The notes: generated by a model not told the origin, from the letters alone. Shown: positions 6,402-32,000, counted from the stretch's first letter. The stretch is 32,000 nt of DNA from Synechococcus elongatus PCC 6301 (GCF_000010065.1 NC_006576.1:1410001-1442000); one strand, 5' to 3'. Program-made: numbers and translations.

Positions 6402-6793
6402 GCTCCATCGAAAGCATTCCCGTCCAGCCAGCGGAAGGTAGGCAGCTTGGGTTGATTTTTAACCCCTCACTCAACCAAGCGATCGCCTCAGATCTGTCCC
6501 AGCTTCTATTGCGATTTCACAGCATCAATGGGTTAGGCCACTAACAGGATCAAGGGAAACTACCCGTTCTCTCAACTGGGATCGACAGGCGTAGGCCAAA
6601 ATGCCATGGCAGCAGCAATCGCCCTCACCAAATTGATAGTTACTCAGCCGCAGCGATCGCATTGAGATCAACAGCAACGGAACTATTCCTAATGACGAGT
6701 GAACGAACGGAGCAGACCTTAAGCTTTCCGCAGAGAAAATTGCCGAATCAGGATTGCCTGTGGATACTGGGGGCAGTTTTTTGAACTATCGGT

Positions 6794-8245
6794 ATGACTA
6801 TCGCGAGCCCAGCCGGGTTTCGTCGTTTGCCTCCTTGGCTAGCACGACTGGCGGGCAGTTCAACGCTGAGTGAATCTCAACCTGATCATGCAGCTTGGGT
6901 CTGGCTGGGGGGCGCACTTGTCTGGATGATTCTGGGCATGTGCCTTGGCATGATCGCAGCGATCAAGCTGGCCTACCCCGATTTCTTGGGGGGTGCAGCT
7001 CCCCTCGGCTTTGGTCGAGTGCGCCCCGAACATGTCAACACCATTCTGTTTGGCTGGATTGTTGGTGGCGAAATTGGCGCAGCGCTCTACATCGTGCCGC
7101 GCGTCTGCCAGCGATCGCTCATCTTGGGTGAACTGGGTGCCCTGAGTGGCTGGGCCTATCACATCGCCGTTTTGCTGGGGCTCGTCAGCGTTAGCCTAGG
7201 CTGGACCAAAGGCGCAAAGTACGAGGAATGGGTGCGTGGCATCAACCTAGCGGTGGTGATCACGGTGAATCTCACAGCGCTCTGTTTGGTGCTCACGGCT
7301 TTCGAGCGGCGGGTTAGCGGCCTGTTTGTCAGCGTCTGGTACTTCTTTCTATTCGCGATCGCCTTTGACTTCATCTATATTCCCGCCAACCTCAGTCGTA
7401 ATGCCGGGGCCGAAGGCGCGGTCATCAACTGGTACTACGGCCACAATGCAGTCGGCTCCGTTATGACCGGAGCGGGCTTGGCGATCGCCTATTACGTTGT
7501 GCCACGGCTGCTGAATCGCCAACTGTTTGCCCACGGCATCGCTACCTTGAGCTTCTGGACCTTTGCCGGCTTCTACATCTGGAACGGCGGCCACCACTTA
7601 CTTTATGGTCCGGTACCGCGCTTCATCACGATGATGGGCTATTTCGCAGCCTTTGGTATGACACTGCCCTTTGTCCTGTCGACGGTGTCGCTCTGGGGCA
7701 CTATTTGGGGCCAGTGGCGCGCCATTTTGGACAGCATTGCCGTGCGCTTCGCGGTTCTTGCTGGCTCTGTCTACTTCTGGGCTTCAGCCTCGGGAGCCAT
7801 GCTGGCTTGGCACGAACTCACCGTGATTCAGCATTTCTCTGACAACACGATCGCCCACGTTCACCTCGCCTTCCTCGGCTTCACGACACCAGCCCTGAAT
7901 GCCCTGCTCTATCTGATGGTGGAACGGGGGATGCGCCGGCCACTGATCGCCGTCCTGCAGAAATTGCACTGGTGGATGTTTGTGATTGGCTGCGCGCTCT
8001 ACATCCTGCCGATCTACGGGGCCGCCTTTTTTGAAGGGGTGGGCTGGTTCCAGCAAGTGCCCTTTAGTGAAACCGTTGCCCTGCGCTACCCCTACTACTA
8101 CCTGCGGATGTACAGCGGTCTTTTCCTAATTGGCGGGCAGTTGGCGATGGTTTGGAACCTGATCTATGCCTGGCGATCGCCTGCATTAGAGGCAGTACCG
8201 GCAATCGACTCCCCAGTCTGGCTGGTTCCAGGAGAAGAAGCATGA
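6794..8245 (+). CDS. heme-copper oxidase subunit I, C-family (cbb3 CcoN-like)
   Basis: 483-aa polytopic ORF. cbb3-type contexts surround all six metal-ligand histidines: FGRVRPEH(80)VNTILFGW, WYYGH(217)NAVG, GGH(267)H(268)LLYGP, NTIAH(355)VH(357). Tyr261 (GFYIWNGGHH) lies six residues before the HH pair. Confidence 0.85.
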   Translation: MTIASPAGFRRLPPWLARLAGSSTLSESQPDHAAWVWLGGALVWMILGMCLGMIAAIKLAYPDFLGGAAPLGFGRVRPEHVNTILFGWIVGGEIGAALYIVPRVCQRSLILGELGALSGWAYHIAVLLGLVSVSLGWTKGAKYEEWVRGINLAVVITVNLTALCLVLTAFERRVSGLFVSVWYFFLFAIAFDFIYIPANLSRNAGAEGAVINWYYGHNAVGSVMTGAGLAIAYYVVPRLLNRQLFAHGIATLSFWTFAGFYIWNGGHHLLYGPVPRFITMMGYFAAFGMTLPFVLSTVSLWGTIWGQWRAILDSIAVRFAVLAGSVYFWASASGAMLAWHELTVIQHFSDNTIAHVHLAFLGFTTPALNALLYLMVERGMRRPLIAVLQKLHWWMFVIGCALYILPIYGAAFFEGVGWFQQVPFSETVALRYPYYYLRMYSGLFLIGGQLAMVWNLIYAWRSPALEAVPAIDSPVWLVPGEEA

Positions 8246-8994
8246 GACGCCTCTACTTCCTGATCTTCGGCCTCCTCGTCCTCTGTGTGGGTGTGTTCAC
8301 TATCAGCGAGCTCTCGATTCGAATTGCCGGCGACACGGTGCCCTCTCCGGGCTTGCAACCCTATAGCGAAGTTGCCCTGCGGGGCCGCCAAGTCTACATC
8401 GAAAATGGTTGCCTCTACTGCCACACCCAGCAGGTGCGGCCCTTGGGGATCGATTCTCCCTATCTGCACGGCACCCGTCCCTCGCTGCCCAATGACTACG
8501 TCTACGATCGCCCCCATTTGATGGGCACAGAACGGCAAGGGCCGGATCTGACCAACATTGGTCGCAAGTATCTGGGAGCCGAGGGCGCTGTCCAGTTGTC
8601 GATGCTGCTGCGCAATCCGCGTTTGCAATTTGCCAATGCGACGATGCCCAGCTTTGATTTCCTCAGCGATCGCGATCGCTCTGATCTGGTCGTCTACCTA
8701 CAAACGCTCGGGGCCTGGAAGGAACCCTACGACGGCCCTATCGAGCGCTGGACCTACGACTATTTGCGGGATGTCCCCAACCTGACCCAGGAAACGATCG
8801 ATCAGATTGATGGCCTGACGGAAGCGCGGCAGGTCACCACCGTCAACGTGCTGATGTTGGTTTGGTTTGGGCTAGCAGTGGTGTTGCCGTTCTTCTTGGC
8901 TTGGCGCAGTGGTCAATTCCGCGATCTGGAAGCGCCAGCCTTGCAGCTCAGCCAGCAAGCTGAAAACCCGACTGATCCTCGCGCTGGAGAGTGA
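8242..8994 (+). CDS. mono-heme cytochrome c subunit, CcoO/FixO-like, with an extra C-terminal transmembrane (CcoQ-like) tail
   Basis: Start chosen at ATG 8242: GGAGAAGAAG lies upstream and it forms an ATGA overlap with the subunit I stop. The track ORF from 8152 is an in-frame upstream extension. Features are an N-terminal TM anchor, heme c site CLYCH at 8410..8424, CcoO-like blocks YDRPHLMGTERQGPDLTNIGRKY, NPR...ATMPSF and VVYLQTLG, and a second hydrophobic helix VNVLMLVWFGLAVVLPFFLAW near the C-terminus. Confidence 0.82.
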   Translation: MRRLYFLIFGLLVLCVGVFTISELSIRIAGDTVPSPGLQPYSEVALRGRQVYIENGCLYCHTQQVRPLGIDSPYLHGTRPSLPNDYVYDRPHLMGTERQGPDLTNIGRKYLGAEGAVQLSMLLRNPRLQFANATMPSFDFLSDRDRSDLVVYLQTLGAWKEPYDGPIERWTYDYLRDVPNLTQETIDQIDGLTEARQVTTVNVLMLVWFGLAVVLPFFLAWRSGQFRDLEAPALQLSQQAENPTDPRAGE

Positions 8995-9531
8995 TTGATT
9001 TTGGACTTTCTCCTCAATCGGACCAATTTGCCCTACCCCGATCCACTCCATGCGATCGTGGTGCACTTTGTGATCGCGATGGTGATTATCTCGTTTCTGT
9101 TCGAGGTCATTGGGCTGATCAGCAAACGCCAAAGCCTGCTGAATGCAGGCTGGTGGAACCTGGTGGTGGCGGCGATCGCGATTTTCTTTGCCATTCTTTT
9201 TGGCCAATTTGAAATTGGTTTGGCCCAGCCTTCCCAAGCGGCTCAACCCACCATCAATCGCCATCTCGCTGTGGGCTGGTTGCTGCTGTTGCTGCTGCCC
9301 AACCTAGCCCTCTGGCAGGGCATTGAGCGATCGCGCGATCGCACCCGTATTTCCAAGGGTGTGCTGGCCTTCAAAGCGATCGTGGTCGTGCTGGTCTGCT
9401 ACCAGTTTTTACTGGGCACCACGATGTATTGGGTCTACGGAATCCACGTTGAGCCGGTGGCGACCGCCAGCCGTGCTGAACTGCCTGACGCCGGTGCTGG
9501 GCGTCCTAATCTGACTGGAGAGGTGCGCTGA
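8995..9531 (+). CDS. DUF2231-like integral membrane protein (about 4 TM, conserved His)
   Basis: 178-aa ORF with a TTG start directly abutting the preceding TGA. The first in-frame ATG would delete TM1, so a non-ATG start is likely. Signature YPDPLHAIVVHFVIA ... GWWNL ... INRHLAVGW. Paralogous to the next ORF. Confidence 0.7.
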   Translation: MILDFLLNRTNLPYPDPLHAIVVHFVIAMVIISFLFEVIGLISKRQSLLNAGWWNLVVAAIAIFFAILFGQFEIGLAQPSQAAQPTINRHLAVGWLLLLLLPNLALWQGIERSRDRTRISKGVLAFKAIVVVLVCYQFLLGTTMYWVYGIHVEPVATASRAELPDAGAGRPNLTGEVR

Positions 9532-10457
9532 TGATCCGGCCATTACTGGCGACGCAACCCGACTGGAGCAGCGGACTGGATCTGGGGCTAAATGGTCTAC
9601 CCTACGCGCTGCCGGTGCATCCCAATCTGGTGCACTTCACGATTGGACTGTTTGCGATCGCCCTGATCTTTGACCTGATTGCCACCAGTCACGGGCTCTT
9701 GCAGCCGATTTACAACCTGCTGCAGATTAAACCCGATCGCGCTGCCTACTACGACCTAGGCTGGTGGAACTTGCTGGCTGCTGCTCTGATCACCTTCGTG
9801 GCCGTGGCCTTCGGCTTCTTCGAAATGCTGCTGGCTGAACCGCCTGCCGGTGCCGTCAGTCCCTGGGGTTTACCGGCGCTGGAGACCATGTATCTGCACG
9901 GCGTCGGCGGTGTTTTTTCCCTGTTCATGATCGTGCTGCTGACCATCTGGCGAGGGCTAGAACGCTATCGTTGGCGAGCGAGGCTCCGCGCTCAAGTCAG
10001 TTTGCGCTACGGTGCTGTGGCCCTGCTGGTTTTAGGCTTCATCAGCATTCAGGCCGAAATGGGGGCACAGCTGGGCGGCACCTTCGGCCTGCACAATACA
10101 GCAGCGCTGCATATCAGCCAAAAACAGTCAGTAGCGACGCTGCAAACCCTGACAATTCCGCCCCGAACGGTTGGCCAAGCGCTCTCCAATCCACCGGCTA
10201 ACTACCCCTTGCCGCGCTGGGAATTCCAAGGCGATCGCCTTTACTACGGCATTCAATCAGTGCTGACCCTGCCAGCGGAGCTTGCCCAGCCTGAGCTGCT
10301 AACGCGGCTGAATGACCATGCGTGGTCGGCGGATGACTTCTCCCTCGTCGGAGATCAAATCTACCTGGGCGATCGCCCGCTCCTACCAGCGGGAACTACC
10401 GGCCAAGCTCAGCTCTATCGCCTCCAAGCCGCTCTCCTCTCGTCGAGTGACCCATGA
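9531..10457 (+). CDS. DUF2231-like integral membrane protein with a C-terminal soluble extension of about 110 aa
   Basis: 308-aa ORF whose ATG overlaps the preceding stop by 1 nt (TGATG). It carries the same signature as the previous ORF (LPVHPNLVHFTIGLFAIA ... GWWNL ... MYLHGVGG). The C-terminal region after about residue 195 is non-hydrophobic and unrecognised. Confidence 0.75.
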   Translation: MIRPLLATQPDWSSGLDLGLNGLPYALPVHPNLVHFTIGLFAIALIFDLIATSHGLLQPIYNLLQIKPDRAAYYDLGWWNLLAAALITFVAVAFGFFEMLLAEPPAGAVSPWGLPALETMYLHGVGGVFSLFMIVLLTIWRGLERYRWRARLRAQVSLRYGAVALLVLGFISIQAEMGAQLGGTFGLHNTAALHISQKQSVATLQTLTIPPRTVGQALSNPPANYPLPRWEFQGDRLYYGIQSVLTLPAELAQPELLTRLNDHAWSADDFSLVGDQIYLGDRPLLPAGTTGQAQLYRLQAALLSSSDP

Positions 10458-11890
10458 TTGCCTCTACGTCGATCGCTAAACCAACGGTCATTGTGGGGGG
10501 TGGCTTTGTCGGCCTGTTCTGCGCCCTGCACCTACGCCATCGCCATTACCCAGCGCCGATCATTTTGATTGATCCCAAGGATCGCTTCATCTTTCGGCCA
10601 CTCCTATTCGACTTCCTCAGTGGTGAACTGAGCGACGAGCAAGTCTGGCCGCGCTACGAAGAATTGCTGCAGGGCAGTGAGGTGGAGTTTATCCAGGATG
10701 CGGTCAGCGCCATCGATTTGGTCGAGCGATCGCTGACGACAGCCCAAGGTTTGACGTTTGATTACGGGCACTTGGTACTGGGTTTGGGAGCAACCCAAGG
10801 CTACTTTGGCACACCGGGGGCGGCCGACTATGCCTTTGCCTTTCGCGATCGCGATCATGTCGTGAAGCTGGAGCAGCACCTGCGGCAGCGGCTGCAAAAA
10901 GCCAGCCAAATCCACGATCGCCAGCAGCGCCGAGACCTGTTGACCATCGCAGTGGTGGGGGCAGGCCCCTCCGGGATTGAGATGGTGGCCCTCTTGGCCG
11001 ATTGGCTGCCGCTGCACTATGGCCGACTGGGCGGCGATCCCCAAGACCTACGCCTGATCTTGGTCAATCGCAGTCCAGAAATTCTCAAGGGCGACGCCAA
11101 TGCCAGCCTGCACGACCTGGTCTTGGAAGAGCTGCAGCAGCGCCAAATGCCCGTTGAATTGCTGTTGGGGGTTGCAGTCGAAGCAGTAACGCCAGAGGGA
11201 TTACAGTACCGCCGGTCGGGAACGGACGCCTTGGAACAGGTGCGGGGCACCGTGATTTGGACAGCAGGGGTCAGCAATAATCCACTTTTATCGCAGTTGG
11301 AGATTCCCGCCAGCGATCGCGATCGCCATGGCATGCCCTACGTTTTGCCGACCCTGCAACTCCTGGGCTATCCCGAGGTCTTTGCGGCGGGTGACTGCGC
11401 CGTGGTCAAGGAGCAGCCGCAACCCGGACTGGCGCAAGTGGCCTATCAACAGGGTGCTGCGATCGCCCATAACCTCTTGGCACTCAGCCATAATCAGCCC
11501 CTCAGTCCTGCCAAAGTCAGCCTGCGTGGCACCTTGATGGGACTGGGGATCGACAATGCGGTGGCCAATCTGCTGAATCGCTACCGTGTCACGGGCAAGC
11601 CCGGATCATTGCTCCGCAAGGCAACCTACTTGGAGCTGTTGCCGACTCCACTCCACAACTTCAAAGCAACCATGGACTGGCTCTCGGATGAGCTCTTTCA
11701 GGGCCACAGCGATCGACCCCAGACGCTAGAGCAACGGGAAGCTGGCATCAGCCGCGCGATCGCGATCACGATCGTTAGTTTGGTGGCAATCCTCGGCGGC
11801 TTCTTTGCCACTCGACTGCTGAACGAACCGCGATCGCCACAACCGCCGCAGTCCATTCCCACACAACCTGCGGCACCGCCCACGCCCTAA
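10454..11890 (+). CDS. type II NADH dehydrogenase (NDH-2 family flavoprotein) with C-terminal membrane anchor
   Basis: 478-aa ORF with an ATGA overlap with the upstream gene. Two dinucleotide-binding motifs, VIVGGGFVGLFCAL and AVVGAGPSGIEMVALLA. AAGDCA motif, a C-terminal hydrophobic helix ITIVSLVAILGGFFATRLL and a Pro-rich tail. Confidence 0.88.
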   Translation: MIASTSIAKPTVIVGGGFVGLFCALHLRHRHYPAPIILIDPKDRFIFRPLLFDFLSGELSDEQVWPRYEELLQGSEVEFIQDAVSAIDLVERSLTTAQGLTFDYGHLVLGLGATQGYFGTPGAADYAFAFRDRDHVVKLEQHLRQRLQKASQIHDRQQRRDLLTIAVVGAGPSGIEMVALLADWLPLHYGRLGGDPQDLRLILVNRSPEILKGDANASLHDLVLEELQQRQMPVELLLGVAVEAVTPEGLQYRRSGTDALEQVRGTVIWTAGVSNNPLLSQLEIPASDRDRHGMPYVLPTLQLLGYPEVFAAGDCAVVKEQPQPGLAQVAYQQGAAIAHNLLALSHNQPLSPAKVSLRGTLMGLGIDNAVANLLNRYRVTGKPGSLLRKATYLELLPTPLHNFKATMDWLSDELFQGHSDRPQTLEQREAGISRAIAITIVSLVAILGGFFATRLLNEPRSPQPPQSIPTQPAAPPTP

Positions 11891-30727: not shown

Positions 30728-31006
30728 AGTGATGACAGTATAATCGTATATTTATTAAATTAAGTAAGGAGTTTTCAGCGCTTCATTTACATGGATTTCA
30801 CTACACCCTCCAAGAAATTGGAAGACATCTTCTGAAAGATTGCACCCAATCAATATCTCTTGCCTAAATGTTAACAAATAGTTTGGTGGTCTAATGACCT
30901 TCATCAGCAACAGCTAACTTAATGTAAGAATTTTGTAATCACGCAATACATTAAGATAATTCTGAGACAAGCTTCATCACAGCATTTTGCCCTTATACTG
31001 GAGAAG

Positions 31007-31012
31007 TATAAT
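31007..31012 (+). promoter_or_regulatory. candidate -10 box (TATAAT) for the ATPase gene
   Basis: Perfect TATAAT 79 nt upstream of the ATG. There is no convincing -35: TTGCCC at 30987..30992 is only 14 nt away. AT-rich DNA produces such hexamers by chance. Confidence 0.25.
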
Positions 31013-31077
31013 ATGTAGATTCTTGATTTACGGCAATAGACTGCCAACTCATGATCAAGAAGTTAAACTAAGGCTTT

Positions 31078-31082
31078 AGGAG
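31078..31082 (+). promoter_or_regulatory. Shine-Dalgarno sequence AGGAG
   Basis: AGGAG lies 8 nt upstream of the ATG at 31091. Confidence 0.6.
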
Positions 31083-31090
31083 TCGAGAAA

Positions 31091-32000
31091 ATGAAAATTA
31101 AGCGAATTTCTGTATATGGTTTATTTGGAGTTTTTGATCACACAATTTCCTTAAACACTAATCAAAGAATTACTATTATTCATGGTCCTAATGGCTTTGG
31201 AAAAACAGCAGTATTAAGACTATTAAACAGCTTTTTTAATTCTCGATATTCCGAGTTAAGATCAATTTCATTTAATAAATTCAAGGTAGAGTTAAATGAT
31301 GATACAGTTATTGAAGTTGCAAGAGAAATAAAAGACTTTCACGAGTCAGGAAGAGTTGATATAACTTTTTATTTATACAAACCTAACATCGAGAGAAAAT
31401 CCTTCTCTTTAGGTCAGGTTAAATATTCTCCCGATATAGGTTTTCCTATTGGTATCCTAGATGAAGTAGTGCCAGGTCTGGAAAGAATAGATACCAGAAA
31501 GTGGATGTATCTTCCCACCGATGAGGTTTTATCTTTAGAAGAAGTTGTTGAGCGTTTTGGAGACTCATTACCTGACTCTTTATCTGCAAATTTAAGGGGA
31601 TCTTATTCAAAAGAAGAACCTGTGTGGTTGAAGGACATAAAAAATGCTATTCACATTCGCCTCATTGAATCGCAGCGACTACTTAATCTCGTTCCTAGTC
31701 GTTCTTCCAGAACATATCGTGGAACACCTTTAATGCTATCTACTGTCTCCGCTTATTCGGATGAACTTGCAAAGCTCATGCAAGATAAATTCAAGGAATA
31801 TGGCACAACATCGCAATCTCTTGACAGAACATTTCCATTGAGAGTGGTAAAGCAACAGCCATCTTCGGACGTATCAGATGAGCAGCTTCGCAACCAGTTG
31901 GATGAGCTTGAGTCAACTCGTTCTCGTCTCATAGAGGTAGGACTACTAGATAAAGAAGAAGATTCAGAATTTCAAATTCAACCTCAAGATATTGATGAGA
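31091..32000 (+). CDS. SMC/RecF-like ABC-type ATPase, N-terminal 303 aa only (runs off the right edge)
   Basis: I translated this by hand and found no stop from ATG 31091 to 32000, which is why it is missing from the ORF track. The sequence begins MKIKRISVYGLFGVFDHTISLNTNQRITIIHGPNGFGKTAVLRLLNSFF. That is a beta-strand lead-in plus Walker A GPNGFGKT (31184..31207), typical of RecF/SMC/Rad50-type ABC ATPases. A candidate Q-loop is at IRLIESQRL. It is followed by a charged, helical-looking stretch (DELAKLMQDKFKEY ... SDEQLRNQLDELESTRSRLIEVGLL). Confidence 0.75.
   Translation, partial: MKIKRISVYGLFGVFDHTISLNTNQRITIIHGPNGFGKTAVLRLLNSFFNSRYSELRSISFNKFKVELNDDTVIEVAREIKDFHESGRVDITFYLYKPNIERKSFSLGQVKYSPDIGFPIGILDEVVPGLERIDTRKWMYLPTDEVLSLEEVVERFGDSLPDSLSANLRGSYSKEEPVWLKDIKNAIHIRLIESQRLLNLVPSRSSRTYRGTPLMLSTVSAYSDELAKLMQDKFKEYGTTSQSLDRTFPLRVVKQQPSSDVSDEQLRNQLDELESTRSRLIEVGLLDKEEDSEFQIQPQDIDE

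What the first reader, a model, noticed from the sequence alone, without database searches (positions are those of the whole stretch)
6794..11890. Self-contained five-gene respiratory operon: cbb3-like CcoN/CcoO, two DUF2231 proteins in place of CcoP, and NDH-2
Seen in sequence: the five plus-strand ORFs have no intergenic space.
- ATGA overlap at 8242..8245.
- TGA abutting TTG at 8994/8995.
- TGATG overlap at 9531.
- ATGA overlap at 10454..10457.

Subunit I has all six His ligands in cbb3-type contexts (H80, H217, H267, H268, H355, H357). It also has Tyr261 six residues before the HH pair. In the C-family oxidase of Pseudomonas stutzeri the His-cross-linked Tyr sits at that position (Y251 relative to H257, from memory). 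Subunit II is CcoO-like (CLYCH, RQGPDL, MPSF). No di-heme CcoP gene is present. Two paralogous His-bearing 4-TM DUF2231 proteins and a membrane-anchored type II NADH dehydrogenase follow.

Established knowledge: the terminal oxidases usually described for cyanobacteria are the aa3-type Cox, ARTO and cytochrome bd. A C-family enzyme is not part of that standard picture.

Inference: the operon may encode a compact NADH-to-O2 (or NO) branch in which the DUF2231 pair replaces CcoP as the electron-entry module, possibly as a quinol-oxidising or heme-b-binding unit.
Basis: partly seen in the sequence, partly recalled or inferred. Interest (0 to 1): 0.65.

Follow-up and report, generated by a model that had tools for sequence, protein, structure and literature searches.

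The report
Cyanobacterial cbb3-like oxidase with ARTO accessory genes
This is the annotated but uncharacterised 'cbb3' operon of Synechococcus elongatus, and its two DUF2231 proteins and NDH-2 turn out to be the same accessory set that sits beside the copper-A-less oxidase ARTO across cyanobacteria, which gives a testable idea of how both oxidases receive electrons.

Summary
Five plus-strand genes (6794-11890) are joined by ATGA, TGA/TTG, TGATG and ATGA junctions. They encode a CcoN-like subunit I with all six His ligands and the C-family Tyr, a mono-haem CcoO, two DUF2231 paralogues and an NDH-2. No CcoP gene lies anywhere in the 32 kb window.

The locus is SYNPCC7942_RS01005-RS01025 of S. 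elongatus. RefSeq already calls it cbb3-type, and papers say its function is unclear, so the operon itself is not new.

What appears to be unreported:
- DufA, DufB and the NDH-2 are orthologues of a module found in at least 567 cyanobacterial genome stretches.
- In 58 well-flanked loci, the module lies next to an A-family oxidase in 49 and next to an NDH-2 in 44. All 60 linked subunit II genes lack the CuA motif, so they are ARTO type.
- The S. elongatus arrangement is a rare variant in which CcoN and CcoO stand in place of the ARTO subunits.
- CcoO carries a fused CcoS/FixS maturation domain.
- DufB carries an extension specific to the C-type clusters, predicted to face the P side.

Best reading: an NAD(P)H to plastoquinone to O2 branch, with DufA/DufB as the P-side electron-entry or quinol site. 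The cofactor is unknown and no structural homologue was found. Interest 0.6.

The parts
6402..6793 (+). 392-nt region between ribD and ccoN, the presumed promoter/leader of the operon
   Evidence: Sequence read. No sigma-70-like site was found on the + strand and there was no Rfam match. One indel relative to PCC 7942 at 6597. The promoter assignment is inference only.
6794..8245 (+). CcoN-like subunit I of a divergent C-family haem-copper O2 reductase (483 aa)
   Evidence: PF00115 1.2e-57. TIGR00780 ccoN scores 207 bits, below the 583-bit cut-off. Best PDB hit is 3mk7_A cbb3 CcoN at 1.6e-49, and only cbb3 chains are hit. All six His ligands and the Tyr align. Equals SYNPCC7942_RS01025.
8242..8994 (+). 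CcoO-like mono-haem cytochrome c subunit II with a fused C-terminal CcoS/FixS-like transmembrane domain (250 aa)
   Evidence: PF02433 FixO 2.5e-24. Aligns to cbb3 CcoO chains, with CLYCH and MPSF matching the CxxCH motif and the Met ligand. Ortholog alignment.
8863..8940 (+). CcoS/FixS-like segment of CcoO (residues 208-233, ...FLAWRSGQFRDLE...)
   Evidence: PF03597 FixS on the isolated tails: window 22.8 bits (cut-off 23.1), Gloeocapsa 31.0, L010 29.4, L012 27.0, L093 16.9. In L011 a separate 84-aa ORF scores 23.1.
8995..9531 (+). DufA: four-helix DUF2231 membrane protein (178 aa) with invariant H19, H24, E73, H90, Q137 and H151
   Evidence: PF09990 5.9e-35. More than 1000 homologues, all from cyanobacteria among those that carry an organism name apart from one MAG labelled Actinomycetota. 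Invariant columns in 121 sequences. AF2 model has pLDDT 85.9 and four long helices. The P-side position of the His/Glu cluster is inferred from the positive-inside rule applied to the sequence.
9531..10457 (+). DufB: paralogous DUF2231 protein (308 aa) with invariant H30, H35, E98, H123 and H188
   Evidence: PF09990 1.2e-28. 32% identical to DufA. Invariant columns. AF2 model pLDDT 85.1.
10116..10454 (+). C-terminal alpha/beta extension of DufB (about residues 196-308), found only in DufB proteins linked to C-type oxidases
   Evidence: DufB is 301-314 aa where the C-type context was seen (window, L001, L003, L010, L093, L012) and in three long homologues whose context was not fetched (P0299, P0303, P0366). 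It is 187-219 aa in ARTO-type loci. AF2 pLDDT is about 90 for residues 224-306. No conserved Cys, His or Met. It follows TM4, so it is predicted to lie on the P side (inference).
10454..11890 (+). Type II NAD(P)H:quinone oxidoreductase (NDH-2, 478 aa) with a C-terminal hydrophobic anchor
   Evidence: PF07992 1.1e-28. The GGGFVGL and GAGPSGIE Rossmann motifs, GDC, and the AQVAYQQG quinone motif are conserved across 58 orthologues. The end of beta-2 reads N-[HR]-[GS], with no acidic residue. 49% identical over 448 aa to the ARTO-linked NDH-2 of L006.

Best explanation
The locus is one functional unit encoding a dedicated NAD(P)H-to-O2 respiratory branch.

Shown:
- CcoN and CcoO form a divergent but cofactor-complete C-family O2 reductase. 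Its maturation factor CcoS is fused to CcoO.
- DufA, DufB and the NDH-2 are orthologues of an accessory set conserved across cyanobacteria. Elsewhere that set flanks the CuA-less A-family oxidase ARTO.

Inferred:
- NDH-2 reduces plastoquinone on the cytoplasmic side.
- A DufA/DufB heterodimer is bound to the oxidase. Each protein has an invariant cluster of four His and one Glu near the P-side surface.
- This heterodimer oxidises plastoquinol, or otherwise relays electrons, on the P side and releases protons there.
- It passes electrons to the haem c of CcoO, then to haem b, then to haem b3-CuB.
- In ARTO the same pair would make up for the missing CuA. Here it makes up for the missing CcoP.
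For: - **Catalytic core.** Searches show the ligands, the Tyr, CxxCH with Met, and hits to cbb3 only.
- **CcoS fusion.**
- **Unit character.** The four junctions are overlapping or abutting.
  - The same genes occur together in Gloeocapsa, L093 with an inserted SET gene, L003 in a different order, and L010 and L012.
  - All five genes rise together in RNA-seq, with log2FC 1.2-2.3, while neighbouring ribD falls.
  - A published iModulon is named 'CBB3 NDHII'.
- **Accessory module.**
  - At least 567 cyanobacterial genome stretches encode DufA relatives.
  - In 58 loci with at least 7 kb downstream, DufB is adjacent in 56, an A-type oxidase is present in 49, a C-type in 1, and an NDH-2 in 44.
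  - 0 of 60 linked COX2 genes have the CuA motif.
  - The Anabaena ARTO operon is published as alr2729-alr2730-coxB3A3C3.
- **Link to the oxidase rather than only to NDH-2.**
  - C-linked DufA proteins are monophyletic. C-linked DufB proteins group together with that of L092, an A-type COX1 locus.
  - C-linked DufB proteins carry a conserved extension, predicted to lie on the P side.
- **Against a pure CuB-insertion role.** L010 keeps the pair although its CcoN has lost the CuB and haem b3 ligands.
- **Weak hint of cytochrome b type.** 106 of 121 DufA proteins give sub-threshold PF01292 hits.
Against: - No cofactor is demonstrated for DufA or DufB.
- There are no PDB sequence hits. Foldseek gives nothing below E 0.3, only generic helical bundles.
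- The PF01292 hits are sub-threshold and appear alongside other hydrophobic-family noise.
- CcoO keeps its haem c and could simply accept electrons from soluble cytochrome c6 or plastocyanin, which would make a membrane entry module unnecessary.
- In a second RNA-seq contrast only ccoN and ccoO change, so the last three genes can be regulated separately.
- L003 lacks an adjacent CcoO, L012 lacks an NDH-2 within 9 kb, and 6 of 58 loci have Duf plus NDH-2 without an oxidase nearby.
- The 80 loci examined are the best-scoring subset of a truncated scan.
Confidence: 0.45

Rival explanations
1. DufA/DufB are non-redox assembly or stabilising factors for CuB/haem-containing subunit I. They would act like CcoH, CcoQ, Cox11 or subunit IV, perhaps handling copper through the His cluster. 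The oxidase would take electrons directly from cytochrome c6 or plastocyanin via CcoO, or from quinol via subunit I in ARTO.
For: - Four invariant His plus a Glu near the membrane surface resemble a metal site more than a classical bis-His pair on two helices.
- The best, though insignificant, fold matches include oxidase subunit III/CyoC.
- L092 has Duf-Duf-COX1 only.
- CcoO retains a normal haem c site.
- Another maturation factor, CcoS, is already built into the operon.
Against: - The pair is found only with CuA-less subunit II genes (0 of 60 have the motif). A general CuB or haem chaperone should not show that restriction.
- It is retained in L010, where the CuB and haem b3 ligands are gone.
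- It is tightly interleaved with NDH-2. Examples are DufA-NDH2-DufB in L065 and L083, and Duf plus NDH-2 without an oxidase in 6 of 58 loci.
Confidence: 0.25
2. DufA/DufB work mainly with the NDH-2, for example as its membrane receptor or as a quinone-handling partner. They sit beside oxidase genes only because the products are co-regulated parts of one respiratory branch, without physical contact with the oxidase.
For: - NDH-2 lies within 10 kb in 44 of 58 loci.
- Loci with Duf plus NDH-2 but no oxidase exist: L014, L032, L069, L082, and DufA-NDH2 alone in L039 and L088.
- NDH-2 is inserted between dufA and dufB in L065 and L083.
- In one RNA-seq contrast dufA, dufB and ndh2 behave differently from ccoN and ccoO.
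Against: - The invariant His/Glu cluster and the DufB extension are predicted on the P side, opposite the cytoplasmic NDH-2 (sequence topology).
- C-linked Duf proteins form their own clade and have a C-type-specific domain, so they co-vary with the oxidase type.
- 12 of 58 loci have an oxidase but no NDH-2 nearby (50 with an oxidase minus 38 with both).
- L010 shows no NDH-2, but that contig ends soon after dufB. L012 has none within 9 kb.
Confidence: 0.15
3. The CcoN/CcoO pair is a nitric oxide reductase, or another non-O2 enzyme of the C branch, and the operon detoxifies NO.
For: - Scores lie far below the ccoN and ccoO equivalog cut-offs.
- The Glu equivalent to P. stutzeri E323 is Ser.
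- HCO oxygen reductases have some NO reductase side activity (PMC11214002).
Against: - All three CuB His and the C-family Tyr are kept, and there is no Glu in the cNOR FeB position (GHNAVGS).
- NOR families lack the Tyr (PMC11214002).
- No NorB or qNOR chain is hit in the PDB even at E<=10.
- Expression rises with oxygen and light stress.
Confidence: 0.05

Closest known systems
cbb3-type (C-family) cytochrome c oxidase, e.g. Pseudomonas stutzeri CcoNOQP (PDB 3mk7/5djq)
   Same: - Subunit I aligns end to end, with all six His ligands and the helix-VII Tyr.
- T215, Y223 and Y317 of the proton pathway are kept.
- CcoO has CxxCH and a Met ligand.
- A CcoS maturation element is present.
   Different: - About 30% identity, and scores lie below the NCBIfam equivalog cut-offs.
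- No CcoP, and no CcoQ gene recognised.
- CcoS is fused to CcoO.
- S240, H243 and E323 are replaced.
- Two DUF2231 proteins and an NDH-2 lie in the operon.
- The host is an oxygenic cyanobacterium.
Cyanobacterial ARTO / Qox (CtaCII-DII-EII; Anabaena alr2729-alr2730-coxB3-coxA3-coxC3)
   Same: Orthologous DufA (48% identity), DufB (52%) and NDH-2 (49%) in the same kind of cluster. In both cases the oxidase lacks the usual electron-entry site: CuA in ARTO, CcoP here.
   Different: - The catalytic subunits belong to a different HCO family (C, not A).
- DufB has an extra domain of about 110 aa.
- The small 2-TM protein common in ARTO clusters is absent.
- That alr2729 and alr2730 are DUF2231 proteins is inferred from Nostocales synteny. 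It was not checked on the PCC 7120 sequence.
Quinol-oxidising haem-copper supercomplexes with an added membrane redox subunit (e.g. Sulfolobus SoxABCD with the cytochrome b-like SoxC; from memory)
   Same: The concept is the same: a haem-copper oxidase gains quinol oxidase activity through an extra integral-membrane subunit encoded in the operon.
   Different: No homology between DUF2231 and cytochrome b was shown. A cofactor in DufA/DufB is hypothetical.
Prokaryotic cytochrome b561 / Ni_hydr_CYTB family (PF01292)
   Same: Four-helix membrane bundle with conserved His. 106 of 121 DufA proteins give weak hits (best E 6.2e-05).
   Different: - The hits are sub-threshold.
- For the one hit whose coordinates were seen (L003 DufA), the match covers TM2-TM3 and does not place a DufA His on the first haem ligand of the profile, by my reading.
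- FdnI appears only at Foldseek probability 0.2.

Membership tests
C-family (cbb3-type) haem-copper O2 reductase | Subunit I homologous to CcoN, with His ligands for low-spin haem b (2), high-spin haem b3 (1) and CuB (3) | tested here: met
   H80, H357; H355; H217, H267, H268 align with P. stutzeri H60, H347; H345; H207, H257, H258.
C-family (cbb3-type) haem-copper O2 reductase | Active-site Tyr supplied from helix VII, six residues before the HH pair (cross-linked to the first CuB His) | tested here: met
   Y261 in FYIWNGGHH aligns with Y251 in VYIWAGPHH. The covalent cross-link itself cannot be tested from sequence.
C-family (cbb3-type) haem-copper O2 reductase | Mono-haem cytochrome c subunit CcoO (CxxCH plus a Met ligand, N-terminal TM anchor) | tested here: met
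   PF02433 2.5e-24. CLYCH and MPSF align with cbb3 CcoO chains.
C-family (cbb3-type) haem-copper O2 reductase | Di-haem CcoP subunit (present in the proteobacterial enzymes; from memory, not universal in the family) | tested here: not met
   The only CxxCH in any ORF of at least 80 aa in the 32 kb window is that of CcoO. The rest of the genome was not searched.
C-family (cbb3-type) haem-copper O2 reductase | Score above the NCBIfam equivalog cut-offs for ccoN (TIGR00780) and ccoO (TIGR00781) | tested here: not met
   207 bits against 583, and 84 bits against 201. This is a divergent lineage, not a canonical equivalog.
C-family (cbb3-type) haem-copper O2 reductase | Conserved Glu that ligates the Ca2+ between the haems (P. 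stutzeri E122; role recalled from memory) | tested here: inconclusive
   Lys (K142) in the window allele. Glu in PCC 7942, in all other S. elongatus strains checked and in all clade members.
C-family (cbb3-type) haem-copper O2 reductase | O2 reduction with high affinity, and proton pumping | not testable with these tools
   Needs purified enzyme.
cNOR/qNOR nitric oxide reductases | FeB site with three His plus a Glu, and no active-site Tyr (PMC11214002) | tested here: not met
   The Tyr is present. No Glu follows the first His (GHNAVGS). No NOR chains are hit in the PDB at E<=10.
DUF2231 (PF09990) | Pfam model match above the gathering score | tested here: met
   120.8 and 100.4 bits against a cut-off of 26.4.
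Cyanobacterial DufA-DufB-NDH-2 oxidase accessory module (defined here) | Adjacent paralogous DUF2231 genes with the invariant H-x4-H / E / H / H pattern, next to a haem-copper oxidase and an NDH-2 | tested here: met
   The window proteins are 48-52% identical to those linked to ARTO.
Type II NAD(P)H dehydrogenase (NDH-2) | Two dinucleotide-binding GxGxxG folds plus the AQxAxQ quinone motif | tested here: met
   GGGFVGL, GAGPSGIE and AQVAYQQG, conserved in 58 orthologues. PF07992 1.1e-28.
Di-haem cytochrome b561 / Ni_hydr_CYTB (PF01292) | Pfam match above the gathering score, with His ligands aligned | tested here: inconclusive
   Weak hits in 106 of 121 DufA proteins (best E 6.2e-05). The one hit seen in detail, L003 DufA, scores 13.8 bits against a cut-off of 30.1. 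No significant fold match.

The most novel reading that the evidence does not exclude
DufA/DufB define an unrecognised family of redox-active, P-side electron-entry (quinol-oxidising) subunits. These would be shared by ARTO and by the cyanobacterial cbb3-like oxidase. Both would then be five- to six-subunit quinol oxidases that, with their own NDH-2, form an NAD(P)H oxidase line partly insulated from the photosynthetic plastoquinone pool.
Probability: 0.28. Interest if true: 0.8.

Novelty: new variant of a known kind. Interest (0 to 1): 0.6.

Why it matters
**Open question on ARTO.** How ARTO receives electrons, and whether it has more than three subunits, is still open. [quoted passage not shown]

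**Open question on the third oxidase.** The function of the third oxidase of the model strain S. elongatus PCC 7942 is explicitly called unclear (PMC13208690).

**What this result adds.** The same DufA/DufB/NDH-2 set is attached to two unrelated catalytic cores that both lack their usual electron-entry site. That points to one common answer and names the genes to delete, tag and purify in tractable strains.

**If DufAB are redox subunits:**
- DUF2231 would gain a function.
- Models of cyanobacterial respiration, dark metabolism and stress electron sinks would need another branch.

Tried and rejected
- **PDB sequence search** with DufA and DufB: no hit, even at E<=10.
- **AlphaFold2 models plus Foldseek against the PDB:** nothing below E 0.3, only generic helical bundles.
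- **NCBIfam** has no model for DufA or DufB.
- **Pfam secondary hits to PF01292:** recurrent but sub-threshold, and accompanied by EamA/DUF5090 noise. Kept only as a hint.
- **Literature search for 'DUF2231':** one unrelated paper. Searches for the old locus tags found nothing, and searches for reviews linking cbb3 to cyanobacterial oxidases added only the two S. elongatus papers already in hand.
- **Promoter/terminator scan:** no informative sites on the + strand, and no terminator-like site after 11890.
- **Rfam scan of the window:** nothing.
- **cNOR/qNOR reading:** rejected on active-site residues and the lack of any NOR hit.
- **Recent horizontal island:** not supported by composition, since GC is 0.58-0.60, like the flanks. 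The neighbours are ordinary housekeeping genes, and no ccoGHI genes lie in the window.
- **Which of NdbA, NdbB or NdbC the NDH-2 matches:** could not be decided without the Synechocystis sequences.
- **Formal HCO phylogeny with NOR outgroups:** not possible, because no NOR sequences could be fetched.

Full report
**Observation**

The five plus-strand ORFs exist as described.
- The junctions are ATGA at 8242-8245, TGA/TTG at 8992-8997, TGATG at 9529-9533 and ATGA at 10454-10457.
- Shine-Dalgarno-like motifs precede three of the starts.
- Pfam assigns COX1, FixO, DUF2231, DUF2231 and Pyr_redox_2.
- The only CxxCH motif in any ORF of at least 80 aa in the 32 kb window is the CLYCH of the CcoO-like protein, so no CcoP gene is nearby.

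**Identity of the locus**

- The DufB protein is found exactly on a 2,696,255-bp contig. From memory, that is the size of the Synechococcus elongatus PCC 6301 chromosome.
- A transcriptome supplement lists SYNPCC7942_RS01005 (NAD(P)/FAD oxidoreductase, 1437 bp), RS01010 and RS01015 (DUF2231, 927 and 537 bp), RS01020 and RS01025 (cbb3 subunits II and I, 753 and 1452 bp). They lie between fbt and ribD, with exactly my ORF lengths and neighbours.

The operon is therefore already annotated in a model organism. Two papers mention it. One counts Cbb3 as a third terminal oxidase of PCC 7942 and says the function 'remains unclear'. The other reports a 'CBB3 NDHII' iModulon. The general picture of cyanobacterial oxidases still lists only type A, bd and 'bo' (ARTO), with type C assigned to Melainabacteria and Sericytochromatia.

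**The catalytic core**

Subunit I aligns over residues 42-462 with P. stutzeri CcoN (3mk7_A, E 1.6e-49). Only cbb3 chains are found in the PDB, even at E<=10.
- H80, H217, Y261, H267, H268, H355 and H357 match H60, H207, Y251, H257, H258, H345 and H347.
- According to PMC11214002, O2 reductases need three CuB His plus the Tyr cofactor, whereas cNOR and qNOR have three His plus a Glu and lack the Tyr. The window protein has the Tyr and no Glu after the first His.
- I therefore read it as an O2 reductase of the C branch.
- It is divergent. Identity to canonical enzymes is about 30%, the ccoN equivalog score is 207 against a 583-bit cut-off, and P. stutzeri S240, H243 and E323 are replaced.

CcoO has CxxCH and the Met ligand. 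Its C-terminal extension is a fused CcoS/FixS maturation domain. The tails of orthologues score 27-31 bits against a cut-off of 23.1, and the window tail scores 22.8.

**Rarity of the C-type clade**

A full HMMER scan of 1.84 billion representatives found only two further cluster representatives above about 33% identity: P0147 at 45% and P0148 at 37%. The word-indexed search found S. elongatus strains, a Gloeocapsa MAG and one metagenome contig at 55-56%. Contexts are:

| Locus | Gene order |
|---|---|
| Gloeocapsa (L001) | same five genes, same order |
| L093 | CcoN-CcoO-SET-DufA-DufB-NDH2 |
| L003 | DufA-DufB-NDH2-CcoN, no adjacent CcoO |
| L010 | CcoN-CcoO-DufA-DufB, then the contig ends |
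| L012 (Stenomitos) | CcoN-CcoO-DufA-DufB |
| L011 (37% identity) | no Duf genes |
| L004, L005 (30% identity) | no Duf genes |

**The key result: the accessory genes are not rare**

- DufA has more than 1000 homologues at 44-55% identity. All of those that carry an organism name are cyanobacterial, apart from one MAG labelled Actinomycetota.
- I annotated the ORFs of the best 80 loci by BLASTP against the window proteins and against a Cylindrospermum locus.
- The dominant arrangement is DufA-DufB-COX2-COX1-COX3-(small 2-TM protein)-NDH-2.

Counts for the 58 loci with at least 7 kb downstream:

| Feature | Loci (of 58) |
|---|---|
| DufB adjacent | 56 |
| A-family oxidase genes present | 49 |
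| All three A-family subunits | 46 |
| C-type oxidase | 1 |
| NDH-2 within 10 kb | 44 |
| Oxidase and NDH-2 | 38 |
| NDH-2 only | 6 |
| Neither | 2 |

- None of the 60 linked COX2 homologues has the CuA motif CxExCxxxHxxM. They are therefore the CuA-less ARTO type.
- The Anabaena ARTO operon is published as alr2729-alr2730-coxB3-coxA3-coxC3. It has an NtcA site upstream of alr2729, and alr2729 and alr2730 are listed together among genes affected by SigC. By synteny with Nostocales loci, those two 'hypothetical' genes should be DufA and DufB. This is an inference.
- The window DufA, DufB and NDH-2 are 48%, 52% and 49% identical to the ARTO-linked ones.
- C-linked DufA proteins are monophyletic in an NJ tree. 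C-linked DufB proteins group together with that of L092, an A-type COX1 locus.
- Stenomitos carries both systems (L012 and L048).

The S. elongatus operon is therefore a variant of a common cyanobacterial supercluster, in which C-family subunits replace the ARTO subunits.

**Anatomy of the Duf proteins**

- Both are four-helix membrane proteins, with AF2 pLDDT of 86 and 85.
- Both keep the same invariant pattern. This is H-x4-H at the start of TM1, a Glu at the end of TM2, a His early in TM3 and a His just after TM4. In DufA these are H19, H24, E73, H90 and H151. In DufB they are H30, H35, E98, H123 and H188.
- The positively charged loops 1-2 and 3-4 place all these residues on the P side (inference from sequence).
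- C-linked DufB proteins add a well-predicted alpha/beta domain of about 110 aa after TM4, so also predicted on the P side. It has conserved motifs but no conserved Cys, His or Met.
- No solved structure resembles either protein.
- 106 of 121 DufA proteins give weak PF01292 (cytochrome b561) hits, which I treat only as a hint.

**NDH-2**

Both Rossmann motifs, GDC and the AQVAYQQG quinone motif are conserved. The end of beta-2 in the NAD(P)H fold is N-[HR]-[GS], without an acidic residue, which may allow NADPH use (inference). A C-terminal hydrophobic segment is present.

**Mechanism**

I commit to the following model:
1. NAD(P)H reduces plastoquinone via NDH-2.
2. Plastoquinol, or its electrons, enters at a P-side site on a DufA/DufB heterodimer bound to the oxidase.
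3. Electrons pass to the haem c of CcoO, then to haem b, then to haem b3-CuB, where O2 is reduced.

Shown: the catalytic residues, the gene linkage, the orthology with the ARTO module, and the restriction to CuA-less or CcoP-less oxidases. Inferred: the heterodimer, the contact with the oxidase, any cofactor, and quinol oxidation.

Arguments for entry rather than assembly:
- The exclusive association with oxidases that lack their normal entry site.
- Retention of the pair in L010, whose CcoN has lost the CuB and haem b3 ligands (H to E, HH to RR, H to Y).
- The tight interleaving with NDH-2.
- Co-variation of the Duf clade and the DufB extension with oxidase type.

Arguments against:
- CcoO could accept electrons from soluble carriers.
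- No cofactor evidence exists.
- In one RNA-seq contrast only ccoN and ccoO respond.

Rivals: an assembly or stabilising factor (0.25), a partner of NDH-2 only (0.15), and a NOR (0.05).

**Expression**

In one contrast all five genes rise together, with log2FC 2.31, 1.92, 1.64, 2.17 and 1.16 from ndh2 to ccoN, while ribD falls. This fits one regulon. A separate internal promoter is possible. No terminator-like site follows 11890.

**Verdict**

The operon itself is known and annotated. The following appear undescribed in the searchable literature:
- The shared DufA/DufB/NDH-2 module.
- The CcoO-CcoS fusion.
- The C-type-specific DufB domain.

I rate this a new variant of a known kind, interest 0.6.

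Noticed in passing
window 6794-8245 (codons 60, 142, 325, 386); L095: The window carries the PCC 6301-type allele of ccoN. Over an 18.2 kb overlap it differs from PCC 7942 by 16 SNPs and 1 indel. Five of the SNPs lie in ccoN, and four are nonsynonymous (T60A, E142K, F325S, P386A). E142 corresponds to the Ca2+-ligand Glu of P. stutzeri, and E142, F325 and P386 are conserved in the clade. This could reflect relaxed constraint in this strain or errors in an old assembly.
   Followed up: partly
window 8863-8940; L001, L010, L012, L093, L011: The C-terminus of the CcoO-like protein is a fused CcoS/FixS cbb3-maturation domain (WRSGQFRDLE motif). In the more distant L011 cluster it is a separate 84-aa gene.
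   Followed up: yes
L010:1393-2862 (P0147): This CcoN-like protein has lost the CuB and haem b3 ligands (H to E, HH to RR, H to Y) but keeps both haem b ligands and the Tyr. It still sits in a CcoO-CcoS-DufA-DufB cluster. Many other distant 'CcoN' representatives also lack ligands.
   Followed up: partly
L003:494-4911: Rearranged cluster DufA-DufB-NDH2-CcoN with no CcoO gene on either side. The upstream 490 nt are non-coding, and the downstream gene is an HTH protein on the other strand.
   Followed up: partly
L006:13174-13458 and 37 of the 80 ARTO-type loci: A conserved small protein of about 90 aa with two TM helices lies between COX3 and NDH-2 in many ARTO superclusters. No counterpart is present in the window operon.
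   Followed up: no
L051 (cyanobacterium PCC 7702): Two tandem copies of DufA-DufB-COX2-COX1-COX3 lie side by side. The second is followed by the small protein and an NDH-2.
   Followed up: no
window 30750-32000: GC drops sharply to 0.29-0.41, against about 0.57 elsewhere, and there are no long ORFs.
   Followed up: no
window 10454-11890 and 58 orthologues: The NDH-2 of this module has N-[HR]-[GS] instead of an acidic residue at the end of the second strand of the NAD(P)H-binding fold. This suggests NADPH may be accepted.
   Followed up: partly
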